From a virus, in IMG/VR virus record IMGVR_UViG_3300035152_000026, positions 1 to 22,001 of that record: 22,001 bases of DNA, one strand, 5' to 3'. The notes under the pieces are model-generated. The model was not told the origin of the DNA, did no database searches, and was given only the letters and a program-made list of their open reading frames with translations. Of the stretch, positions 4,628 to 4,716 are shown in pieces. The position numbers and the translations under genes were made by a program. Positions within the stretch are counted from its first letter, which is position 1, and the number at the start of each line of letters is the position of its first letter.

Positions 4628-4639
4628 AAAACGCGTTTT
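4628..4639. promoter_or_regulatory. perfect 12-bp palindrome AAAACGCGTTTT in the divergent sulfotransferase/rsr intergenic region
   Basis: The sequence equals its own reverse complement. It looks like a dimeric-regulator operator. Confidence 0.3.
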
Positions 4640-4716
4640 GCCTGGCAGTGAGGTTAGCGGTTACTTCTTTAAGGCGAAGACAACACCGATAGCGTCTATT
4701 CTCCAGGCATTTTTTC
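4640..4716 (+). ncRNA. candidate structured small RNA immediately upstream of rsr (possibly Y-RNA-like), ending in a T-run
   Basis: GCCTGG (4640-4645) pairs with CCAGGC (4704-4709), enclosing about 58 nt, and ATTTTTTC (4710-4717) follows. It contains the motif GCAGTGAGG-ttag-CGGTTACTTC (4645-4667), which also occurs twice downstream of rsr. A terminator-like structure here makes no sense for protein genes, because this is a divergent promoter region. Confidence 0.3.

What the first reader, a model, noticed from the sequence alone, without database searches (positions are those of the whole stretch)
4628..4716. Divergent sulfotransferase/rsr spacer contains a perfect 12-bp palindrome and a terminated small-RNA-like hairpin directly abutting the rsr start
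AAAACGCGTTTT (4628-4639) is a perfect palindrome. Immediately after it, GCCTGG...CCAGGC encloses the first copy of the rsr-associated motif and is followed by ATTTTTTC, ending about 10 nt before the rsr ATG. A Rho-independent-terminator-like structure on the sense strand just before a start codon suggests a separate upstream small RNA whose 3' end abuts rsr. The alternative is an attenuator or riboswitch-like leader controlling rsr.
Basis: seen in the sequence. Interest (0 to 1): 0.5.

Follow-up and report, generated by a model that had tools for sequence, protein, structure and literature searches.

The report
Y RNA gene abutting rsr
The hairpin just upstream of the Ro60-like gene (rsr) is best explained as a short bacterial Y RNA, the small RNA partner that Ro60 proteins bind; two more copies lie just downstream of the gene, so this is a known kind of system with a slightly different protein-binding motif.

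Summary
They differ in weight.

- **Palindrome.** AAAACGCGTTTT is at chance level: 9 perfect 12-bp palindromes in the window against 7.0±2.8 simulated. It is absent from the two closest relatives.
- **Hairpin.** 4639-4709 is a conserved structured RNA. A covariance model built only from other genomes finds it at 62.7 bits (E 2e-13). The same model finds two more copies at 6359-6427 and 6443-6518, and nothing else credible in 22 kb.
- **Family.** The family gave 90 hits in 69 of 83 rsr-containing sequences searched, across about eight phyla, all on the rsr strand. Both stems covary strongly. An RNA-first metagenome scan recovered rsr beside 18 of 25 model-positive hits.
- **Architecture.** Terminal stem, bulged C, CAGUGAG, second stem, GGUUACUUC loop, GUUCUCC. 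This matches known bacterial and phage Y RNAs, with UGAG/UGAA in place of the published CGAA Ro60-binding motif.
- **Subtype.** No tRNA-like domain is present, so it is YrlB-like, not YrlA (Rfam YrlA: no hit).
- **U6 run.** It is not a family feature. It leaves no room for an rsr promoter, so rsr must be read through the RNA. I infer a Y1-rsr-Y2-Y3 operon processed into Y RNAs.

Rsr binding has not been tested.

The parts
4639..4709 (+). Y RNA copy 1, the finding's hairpin. P1 is UGCCUGG 4639-4645 paired with CCAGGCA 4703-4709. C 4646 is bulged. A4647-U4702 and G4648-C4701 are invariant pairs. The 5' motif CAGUGAG is at 4646-4652. P2 is 4653-4660 paired with 4686-4693. The apical loop holds the GGUUACUUC box (4659-4667) and an A-rich 3' side. 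The 3' motif AUUCUCC is at 4698-4704.
   Evidence: CM R1 gives 67.3 bits. Leave-out CM R2 gives 62.7 bits, E 2e-13. Single-sequence fold z = -3.27.
4709..4716 (+). AUUUUUUC tail directly after P1. It is possibly a leaky terminator or a processing site, and it is not conserved in the family.
   Evidence: Sequence. Only 17 of 90 homologues have TTTT within 12 nt, and only this one has 6 or more T among the first 8 bases. L081 and L082 have UUUCUCCC and CUUUCUUCUCC instead. No terminator was called by the scan.
4628..4639 (.). Perfect 12-bp palindrome AAAACGCGTTTT. It is probably incidental. It overlaps a weak extended -10-like TGcTAAAAC at 4624-4632.
   Evidence: The window has 9 such palindromes against 7.0 +/- 2.8 expected. 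It is absent in L081 and L082. The promoter reading is inference only.
4720..4724 (+). GGGGG, the likely Shine-Dalgarno sequence of rsr, 5 nt before the ATG at 4730.
   Evidence: Sequence. L081 and L082 have AGGAGG at the same place in the alignment.
4730..6349 (+). rsr, the Ro60 orthologue (TROVE domain). The alternative in-frame ATG is at 4727.
   Evidence: Pfam TROVE E 5.9e-10. PHROG 850 RNA-binding protein E 1e-39. 2912 homologues found. The MGR start is shared with L081 and L082.
6356..6430 (+). Y RNA copy 2, starting 6 nt after the rsr stop codon. The CM core is 6359-6427. P1 is CCCGAUGGGG paired with CCCCGUCGGG, and the motif is CAGUGAAG.
   Evidence: R1 gives 59.6 bits and R2 gives 53.4 bits. 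Fold z = -3.72.
6441..6520 (+). Y RNA copy 3, starting 10 nt after copy 2. The CM core is 6443-6518. It is followed by GCUUUUCUUC.
   Evidence: R1 gives 48.4 bits although it was not in the seed. R2 gives 47.4 bits. Fold z = -4.08.
4531..4540 (+). CTGTGGATAA box, DnaA-box-like on the other strand, about 100 nt upstream of Y RNA 1. It is conserved in L081 and L082. It is a candidate operator for the divergent promoters, and whether it belongs to the Y1-rsr unit is uncertain.

Best explanation
The hairpin at 4639-4709 is a gene for a short, YrlB-like bacterial Y RNA, the noncoding RNA partner of the Ro60 orthologue Rsr encoded 20 nt downstream. Two paralogous Y RNAs follow the rsr stop codon.

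**Shown**
- The element belongs to a conserved RNA family found next to rsr, on the rsr strand, in many phyla.
- Its two stems covary.
- Its layout matches Y RNAs of phages in which Y RNA-like RNAs have been reported, position for position. The layout is: terminal stem formed by the 5' and 3' ends; a bulged C plus two invariant pairs; the 5'-strand motif CAGUGA(G/A); a second stem; a GGUUACUUC loop; and the 3'-strand GUUCUCC.
- At the position of the published CGAA Ro60-binding motif it has UGAG or UGAA.

**Inferred**
- Rsr binds the conserved bulged helix at the base of the stem, as Ro60 does on other Y RNAs.
- The RNA then gates the Rsr ring or tethers it to a partner such as PNPase.
- Y1, rsr, Y2 and Y3 are made as one transcript. 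The gaps are 20, 6 and 10 nt, with no room for promoters. The Y RNAs are cut out and stabilised by Rsr.
- The U6 run after copy 1 is at most a leaky terminator, giving more Y RNA than rsr mRNA.
For: **Detection**
- The leave-out CM R2, built from 35 sequences of other genomes, finds 4639-4709 at 62.7 bits (E 2e-13), 6359-6427 at 53.4 and 6443-6518 at 47.4. The next hit scores 11.8 bits.

**Association with rsr**
- Model R1 gave 90 hits in 69 of 83 rsr-containing sequences searched, all on the rsr strand.
- 75 hits lie upstream (median gap 82 nt) and 15 downstream.
- In an RNA-first metagenome scan, 25 of the first 100 pattern matches were CM-positive. Of these, 18 carry rsr on the same strand in the same stretch. 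Five of the other 7 have less than 1 kb of contig on the 3' side.
- None of the 75 CM-negative matches carries rsr.

**Structure**
- RNAalifold predicts P1, a bulged C, A-U and G-C pairs, and P2.
- On the MAFFT alignment 91.8% of cells pair, against 63.7% when shuffled and 41-55% when slid. There are 190 double-change cells against 59, and 0 of 500 shuffles reach this.
- P1 is 100% paired, with 7 of 10 pairs showing compensatory changes.

**Kinship with known Y RNAs**
- Long forms in related loci carry T and D arms and give sub-threshold Rfam YrlA hits of 33-43 bits.
- Phage G, CcrColossus and a Gordonia phage give weak R1 hits. In these, GCGAAG, GCGUAG or AGCGG sits where CAGUGAG sits here. 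The same UUACUUC box and a GUUCC, AUCUC or similar 3' strand follow.

**Operon**
- The spacing comes from the sequence itself.
Against: - No expression, end-mapping or Rsr-binding data exist for this RNA.
- The published defining motif (GNCGAAN0-1G / CGAA) is not met literally. In Thermus phage phiLo, single substitutions in CGAA lowered Ro60 affinity 3-4 fold.
- Rfam YrlA (RF02553) gives no hit in the 3.2 kb spanning rsr and its flanks (4400-7600) even at E <= 10. Classification as a Y RNA therefore rests on architecture and linkage, not on a curated model.
- The apical stem P3 is weak. Only 13 of 79 short forms fold UUC with GAA in the minimum-energy structure.
- No promoter could be identified with confidence upstream of 4639.
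[quoted passage not shown] None is present in these 22 kb.
Confidence: 0.85

Rival explanations
1. Dual-function leader. Besides being a Y RNA, copy 1 acts in cis on rsr. Either the U6 run works as a leaky intrinsic terminator, or Rsr bound to the P1 helix (11 nt from the Shine-Dalgarno sequence) blocks ribosome access. Either way Rsr would feed back on its own synthesis and set the Y RNA to Rsr ratio.
For: - P1 ends at 4709. U6 is at 4710-4715, the Shine-Dalgarno sequence at 4720-4724 and the ATG at 4730.
- rsr has no room for its own promoter, so every rsr mRNA carries this element in its 5' UTR.
- Nine loci place a Y RNA 18-30 nt from the rsr start.
- This is the only one of 90 copies with 6 or more T among the first 8 bases after the hairpin.
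Against: - The distance to rsr is not conserved. It ranges from 18 to 603 nt, with a median of 82.
- The U-run is absent in the closest relatives.
- Equivalent copies lie downstream of rsr.
- The terminator scan did not call the site.
- No alternative (antiterminator) pairing was looked for or seen.
Confidence: 0.2
2. Plain Rho-independent terminator, for example of an upstream transcript, or a stand-alone terminated sRNA unrelated to Rsr function.
For: A GC-containing closing stem is followed by A+U6.
Against: - Terminators do not conserve internal-loop sequences across phyla. This element keeps CAGUGAG, GGUUACUUC and GUUCUCC invariant while its stems covary.
- The upstream gene is divergent, so no upstream + strand gene needs terminating.
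- The U-run is not a family feature.
- The element tracks rsr in an RNA-first search.
Confidence: 0.03
3. Metabolite- or protein-sensing riboswitch or attenuator leader of rsr.
For: It is a structured, conserved RNA in the 5' UTR, and 75 of 90 copies lie upstream of rsr.
Against: - Two of the three copies here, and all copies in the Armatimonadota loci L027 and L059, lie downstream of rsr.
- Copies occur in tandem arrays of up to six.
- Long forms carry tRNA-like domains typical of YrlA.
- There is no expression platform.
Confidence: 0.02
4. The palindrome AAAACGCGTTTT is an operator for a dimeric regulator of the Y1-rsr unit.
For: It is a perfect 12-bp dyad ending at the first base of the RNA. 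It overlaps a weak extended -10-like TGcTAAAAC.
Against: - Its frequency is at chance level.
- It is not conserved in L081 or L082. L082 lacks the segment altogether.
- The conserved upstream element is a different one, CTGTGGAYAA at 4531-4540.
Confidence: 0.05

Closest known systems
Short bacterial Y RNAs: S. Typhimurium and M. smegmatis YrlB, D. radiodurans Yrn2 (Chen et al. 2014, PMC4201824)
   Same: - Encoded beside rsr on the same strand.
- About 65-90 nt.
- A long hairpin formed by pairing of the 5' and 3' ends.
- A conserved motif in the 5' strand near the base of the stem.
- A small pyrimidine-rich apical loop and no full tRNA-like domain.
- Several Y RNAs per locus.
- Polycistronic with rsr or with other Y RNAs.
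   Different: - The 5'-strand motif is (G)CAGUGA(G/A), not GNCGAAN0-1G. That is UGAG or UGAA in place of CGAA.
- The 3' strand GUUCUCC is also conserved and forms a bulged-C helix.
- In 2014 YrlB homologues could only be found within Salmonella. Here a single model recovers short forms across about eight phyla.
YrlA (Rfam RF02553), the tRNA-like bacterial Y RNA
   Same: - Related loci carry long forms with the same 5' and 3' motifs and the UUACUUC box, plus T arm, acceptor-like stem and D arm. These give sub-threshold YrlA hits.
- The UUAC in the box fits the 'conserved YUAY' of YrlA.
   Different: - The three RNAs in this window have no T or D arm.
- There is no YrlA hit in the 3.2 kb spanning rsr and its flanks (4400-7600) even at E <= 10.
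Metazoan Y RNAs and D. radiodurans Yrn1 Ro60-binding helix (GGUCCGA on the 5' strand with a bulged C; Stein et al. 2005, as cited in PMC4201824)
   Same: - The terminal stem is made by the two RNA ends.
- A single bulged C on the 5' strand is followed by two conserved pairs and an internal loop.
[quoted passage not shown]
- A U- or pyrimidine-rich 3' tail follows.
   Different: - The sequence of the helix differs.
- There is no Pol III or La context.
- The resemblance of the bulged helix is structural inference from RNAalifold, not a tested binding mode.
Phage Y RNA-like RNAs. Named in the literature read here: Thermus phage phiLo Yrl1/Yrl2 (PMC12135203), and mycobacteriophages, Bacillus phage G and Caulobacter phage CcrColossus (PMC12135203 citing its ref. 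29). Gordonia phage Rabbitrun is my own comparison locus.
   Same: - The element order is the same. In cmsearch alignments GCGAAG, GCGUAG or AGCGG aligns with CAGUGAG, followed by stem, UUACUUC, stem and a GUUCC-like strand.
- They occur in tandem arrays next to the phage Ro60 gene.
   Different: - R1 scores for these are only 17-25 bits.
- The Rsr proteins are at most 38% identical to the one here.
- The motif variant appears to track the Rsr clade.

Membership tests
Bacterial Y RNA (Ro60/Rsr-associated ncRNA) | Encoded within a few kb of an rsr/TROVE gene, on the same strand | tested here: met
   All three copies lie within 20 nt upstream or 170 nt downstream of rsr, on the + strand. All 90 family hits are on the rsr strand. 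An RNA-first scan found 18 of 25 with rsr adjacent.
Bacterial Y RNA (Ro60/Rsr-associated ncRNA) | About 70-130 nt RNA whose 5' and 3' ends pair into a long stem interrupted by internal loops or bulges | tested here: met
   71-80 nt. P1 is 100% paired with compensatory changes at 7 of 10 pairs. P2 is 82% paired with 7 of 8 pairs covarying.
Bacterial Y RNA (Ro60/Rsr-associated ncRNA) | Ro60-binding motif GNCGAAN0-1G (CGAA) in the 5' strand near the base of the stem | tested here: not met
   The motif here is A-G-U-G-A-(A/G)-G. It matches GNCGAAG at 5 of 7 positions in copies 2 and 3 and at 4 of 7 in copy 1. CGAA is replaced by UGAA or UGAG. It occupies the same model positions as GCGAAG or GCGUAG in phage Y RNAs. 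It is therefore a variant, not the published motif.
Bacterial Y RNA (Ro60/Rsr-associated ncRNA) | Physically bound and stabilised by Rsr | not testable with these tools
   This needs co-immunoprecipitation or EMSA.
YrlA (Rfam RF02553) | tRNA-like module (T arm, D arm, acceptor-like stem) and a score above the Rfam gathering threshold (69 bits) | tested here: not met
   No Rfam hit at gathering threshold in the whole window, and none at E <= 10 in the 3.2 kb spanning rsr and its flanks, 4400-7600. ARAGORN finds no tRNA-like gene. The T-loop pattern is at chance level.
Intrinsic (Rho-independent) terminator | Compact GC-rich hairpin (loop 3-8 nt) immediately followed by a U-tract, with the U-tract conserved among orthologous sites | tested here: not met
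   The U6 run is present. The closing stem, however, encloses 57 nt, the scan calls nothing, and only 17 of 90 homologues have TTTT nearby. L081 and L082 lack it. Leaky termination in this one locus is not excluded.
Riboswitch or attenuator leader | Found only in the 5' UTR of the regulated gene, with an expression platform offering alternative pairings | tested here: not met
   15 of 90 copies are downstream of rsr, including 2 of the 3 here. Alternative pairings were not searched for systematically.

The most novel reading that the evidence does not exclude
The hairpin may belong to a widespread short Y RNA family that no curated model covers. The family has a UGAR variant of the Ro60-binding motif and spans about eight phyla. 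Myxococcota carry circularly permuted versions embedded in a tRNA. In this locus, which shows no tRNA-like YrlA within 22 kb, copy 1 may also act as an Rsr-responsive 5' leader or leaky terminator that sets the Y RNA to Rsr ratio. The element carrying it is rich in genes with no recognisable family and may be a phage or other mobile element.
Probability: 0.15. Interest if true: 0.6.

Novelty: new variant of a known kind. Interest (0 to 1): 0.4.

Why it matters
**Annotation.** The curated YrlA model (gathering threshold 69 bits) misses these RNAs, so rsr loci like this one look as if they lack a Y RNA. The model built here recovers Y RNAs in 69 of 83 rsr-containing sequences searched.

**Ro60 recognition.** Ro60 recognition appears to tolerate, or to co-vary with, a C-to-U change in the CGAA core, together with a conserved partner strand. 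This gives a natural series of RNA-protein pairs for working out Ro60 specificity.

**This locus.** The finding is explained. It is the RNA partner of the adjacent gene, not a new regulatory device.

**Two points that go beyond the textbook picture.**
- All three Y RNAs here are short forms with no tRNA-like partner in view.
- The first copy sits so close to the ribosome-binding site that autoregulation can be tested.

Tried and rejected
- **Rfam on the window.** At gathering threshold on the whole window, and at E <= 10 on 4400-7600, the only hit was a chance Actino-pnp match.
- **Promoter and terminator scan of 4400-6700.** Nothing found. No convincing sigma-70 or sigma-54 promoter could be defined by comparing the three closest loci. 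TGcTAAAAC (extended -10-like) and TGG-N10-GC (sigma-54-like) are weak and not conserved.
- **Viral contigs, protein search.** No close relative of this Rsr.
- **Viral contigs, 15-base RNA pattern.** Only L131 was a confident hit (47 bits) and L123 a marginal one (26.8 bits). The rest were chance matches.
- **L131.** It has a long and a short form, but no TROVE gene in the 6.5 kb downstream. Its upstream side is not held.
- **Apical stem P3 (UUC/GAA).** The minimum-energy fold supports it in only 13 of 79 short forms, so it was left out of the models.
- **Supplementary tables of Chen et al. 2014 and the 2020 Annual Review.** Neither is held, so I could not check whether Sorangium or similar species were already on their list.
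- **Pfam and PHROGs on the other window ORFs tested.** Almost no hits, so phage versus cellular origin stays open.
- **Sulfotransferase label of the divergent gene.** Not confirmed.

Full report
**Observation**

- AAAACGCGTTTT is at 4628-4639.
- GCCTGG at 4640-4645 pairs with CCAGGC at 4703-4708.
- ATTTTTTC is at 4709-4716.
- In-frame ATGs lie at 4727 and 4730.

The ORF 4727/4730-6349 has a TROVE domain (Pfam E 5.9e-10; PHROG 850 'RNA-binding protein' E 1e-39). It has thousands of Ro60/Rsr homologues. The closest relatives start MGR, so 4730 is the likelier start, with GGGGG at 4720-4724 as the Shine-Dalgarno sequence.

The divergent gene is called as 3923-4507 on the minus strand. Its sulfotransferase label could not be confirmed. 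The only signal is Sulfotransfer_3 at E 0.099, 13 bits against a cut-off of 27, over the N-terminal P-loop only.

**Palindrome**

The window has nine perfect 12-bp palindromes, against 7.0 +/- 2.8 in first-order Markov simulations. The palindrome is missing from the same spacer in L081 (Rsr 88% identical) and L082 (80%), and L082 lacks the whole segment. I treat it as incidental.

It overlaps a weak extended -10-like TGcTAAAAC. A transcript from that site would begin at about 4639-4640, the first base of the RNA. This is inference only, and the consensus scan found no promoter.

**The hairpin is one of three paralogues**

Two more copies follow the rsr stop codon at about 6356-6430 and 6441-6520. 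All three share these elements in order:
- a terminal stem whose sequence differs between copies;
- GGCAGUGA(G/A)G;
- a second, variable stem;
- CGGUUACUUC;
- a short apical region with an A-rich 3' side;
- the 3' half of the second stem;
- (G/A)UUCUCC;
- the 3' half of the terminal stem.

Each copy folds better than its shuffles (z = -3.3, -3.7 and -4.1).

**Relatives elsewhere**

A scan of one genome per species with an Rsr alignment returned 80 rsr loci. Three more came from metagenome contigs that encode the closest Rsr proteins.
- A simple regular expression found 108 motif instances in the 80 genome loci and the window. All were on the rsr strand.
- Forty non-redundant short forms aligned cleanly with MAFFT.
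- RNAalifold, given no guidance, predicted the following: an 8-bp terminal stem P1, a single bulged C, two invariant pairs (A-U, G-C), an internal loop and a second stem P2.
- On that MAFFT alignment 91.8% of cells pair, against 63.7% after shuffling and 41-55% when partners are slid by 1-3 columns.
- There are 190 cells changed on both sides, against 59 in shuffles. None of 500 shuffles reaches the observed covariation score.
- P1 is paired in 100% of cells, with compensatory changes at 7 of 10 pairs.

**Covariance models**

Model R1 finds exactly three credible hits in the window: 67, 60 and 48 bits, with the next at 11.5. The third was not in the seed.

R1 uses window sequences, so I built R2 from 35 sequences of other genomes only, also leaving out L081 and L082. 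R2 finds 4639-4709 at 62.7 bits (E 2e-13), 6359-6427 at 53.4 and 6443-6518 at 47.4.

Across the 83 sequences searched (the window and 82 related rsr loci), R1 gives 90 hits in 69 of them, all on the rsr strand. Of these, 75 lie upstream (median 82 nt from the start codon, range 18-603) and 15 downstream.

**Association tested from the RNA side**

A 21-base pattern scanned over metagenome contigs gave 111 stretches.
- Of the first 100, 25 were CM-positive.
- 18 of those 25 contain an rsr homologue on the same strand.
- Five of the remaining seven have less than 1 kb of contig on the 3' side.
- None of the 75 CM-negative stretches, which are chance pattern matches, has rsr.

The link to rsr is therefore not a product of how the loci were chosen.

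**What kind of RNA**

Chen et al. 2014 (PMC4201824) describe bacterial Y RNAs in these terms:
- about 80-130 nt;
- encoded within a few kb of rsr on the same strand;
- a stem formed by the two ends;
- a 5' GNCGAAN0-1G motif thought to be the Rsr binding site;
- often processed from a polycistronic precursor.

The window RNAs fit the second type. Three comparisons tie the family to known Y RNAs.

1. *Long forms.* Related loci hold long forms with the same 5' and 3' motifs plus T arm, acceptor-like stem and D arm. These give sub-threshold hits to Rfam YrlA RF02553 (33-43 bits, E 3e-6 to 3e-3).
2. *Phage loci.* PMC12135203, citing earlier work, names Bacillus phage G and CcrColossus among phages with reported Y RNA-like RNAs. 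I added a Gordonia phage locus for comparison. In all three, R1 gives weak hits (17-25 bits). In these hits GCGAAG, GCGAC or AGCGG occupies the model positions of CAGUGAG. The same stem, UUACUUC box, stem and a GUUCC or AUCUC strand follow.
3. *The shared box.* The GUUACUUC box is present in every Y RNA type I looked at. It contains the 'YUAY' noted for YrlA.

Read against GNCGAAG, copies 2 and 3 (AGUGAAG) match 5 of 7 positions and copy 1 (AGUGAGG) matches 4. The CGAA core is UGAA or UGAG. The motif variant appears to follow the Rsr clade:
- GCAGUGAG here;
- GCAGCGG in Thermoguttaceae;
- GAAGCGG in Bacillus and phage G;
- GAUGCGAAG in the Gordonia phage;
- GGUGGCGUAG in CcrColossus.

**What it is not**

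- *Not YrlA.* Rfam has the family, but there is no hit at gathering threshold anywhere in the window, and none at E <= 10 in the 3.2 kb spanning rsr and its flanks. ARAGORN finds nothing. The T-loop pattern is at chance level.
- *Not a plain terminator.* The internal loops are invariant across phyla while the stems covary. The upstream gene is divergent. The U-run is not a family trait: TTTT occurs within 12 nt in 17 of 90 copies, only this copy has 6 or more T among the first 8 bases after the hairpin, and L081 and L082 have UUUCUCCC and CUUUCUUCUCC there.
- *Not a riboswitch-type leader.* Two of the three copies here, and all copies in two Armatimonadota loci, lie downstream of rsr.

**How it most likely works (inference)**

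The gaps are 20 nt (Y1 to the ATG at 4730, containing the Shine-Dalgarno sequence), 6 nt (stop codon to Y2) and 10 nt (Y2 to Y3). There is no room for separate promoters.

The four genes are therefore almost certainly one transcript. The Y RNAs would be excised from it, as reported for M. smegmatis and D. radiodurans. Rsr would bind the conserved bulged helix at the base of P1. By analogy with characterised systems, the RNA would then gate the Rsr ring or tether it to an exoribonuclease such as PNPase.

The U6 after Y1 may terminate some transcripts, which would give an excess of Y RNA over rsr mRNA. P1 ends 11 nt from the Shine-Dalgarno sequence, so bound Rsr could also hinder ribosome loading. 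That autoregulatory reading is not excluded for this locus. It is not a conserved property of the family, because the distances vary widely.

**Novelty**

Y RNAs beside rsr are established biology, so the finding is largely explained by known systems. What seems new:
- a single model that recovers short Y RNAs across Myxococcota, Chloroflexota, Armatimonadota, Nitrospirota, Deinococcota, Verrucomicrobiota, Planctomycetota, Bacillota and others (in 2014 YrlB homologues could not be found outside Salmonella);
- the UGAR variant of the binding motif, with a conserved partner strand;
- a locus with three short forms and no tRNA-like form in view.

I could not check the 2014 supplementary lists, and literature searches found no description of this variant. 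The claim of novelty is therefore moderate.

**Context**

Few of the window ORFs tested have any Pfam or PHROG hit. The hits are Rsr, a C39 peptidase, DUF3228, one PHROG of unknown function and a below-cut-off DUF3140 match. The 80% relative L082 has tRNAs, EF-Tu and a phage-type lysozyme near rsr. A large phage or other mobile element is possible but not shown. No close relative exists in IMG/VR or among the GenBank phage records, where the best match is 38% identical.

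Noticed in passing
L012 2739-2865, L013 2712-2848, L026 2676-2810, L034 2830-2957, L001 2172-2313 and about 35 other Myxococcota loci, directly upstream of rsr: A circularly permuted, tRNA-embedded Y RNA. The transcript order is acceptor 5' strand, D arm, then P2 with the GUUCUCC/CAGUGAG helix closed by a hairpin loop where the anticodon arm would be, then UUACUUC, a variable hairpin, T arm and acceptor 3' strand. The acceptor 3' strand is sometimes followed by CCA. The Rfam tRNA model hits these at 42-52 bits with a ~60-nt insertion. 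The minimum-energy fold of L013 is a cloverleaf.
   Followed up: partly
L009, L012, L013, L016, L034, L066, about 40-90 nt upstream of the first Y RNA: Sigma-54-type promoter motifs (TGGCAC-N5-(T/C)TGC) precede the Y RNA-rsr units in Myxococcota. This recalls the RtcR/sigma-54-controlled rsr operon of Salmonella. No convincing equivalent is present in the window.
   Followed up: no
window 4531-4540 and 7907-7939: CTGTGGAYAA, the complement of the DnaA-box consensus TTATCCACA, occurs exactly three times in the window, all on the + strand. One copy is in the rsr spacer and is conserved in L081 and L082. The others form part of three tandem 11-bp units CTGTGGATAAG/CTGTGGACAAG/TTGTGGGTAAG in the next divergent intergenic region. 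This looks like an operator or iteron array.
   Followed up: partly
window 8083-8125: A G-rich run of imperfect tandem units, GGGGCG(C/T)GGC, lies in the intergenic region upstream of the ORF at 8164.
   Followed up: no
L048 2305-2982 and 4981-5093; L059, L068, L082, L205, L208: rsr/Y RNA clusters often sit next to tRNA gene arrays. Examples are the Nitrospiraceae L048 with six Y RNAs and six or more tRNAs, the Capsulimonadaceae L059, Lysinibacter L068, and phages G and Rabbitrun. The window itself has no tRNA.
   Followed up: no
L131 72-215 and 582-651 (IMG/VR contig 3300037247_001777): A viral contig carries one long (T and D arm) and one short Y RNA of this family. No TROVE gene lies in the 6.5 kb downstream, and the upstream side is not held.
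   Followed up: partly
window 1-22001: Gene content is dominated by short ORFs with no Pfam or PHROG family. Together with the lysozyme, EF-Tu and tRNAs in the relative L082, this suggests a large phage or mobile element. No structural phage gene was identified.
   Followed up: partly
L081 2139-2245: The closest relative has a fourth Y RNA downstream of rsr with a lone T-arm-like hairpin (AAGGUUCGACUCCUU) in its apical region. This is intermediate between the short and long forms. The window has no counterpart after copy 3.
   Followed up: no
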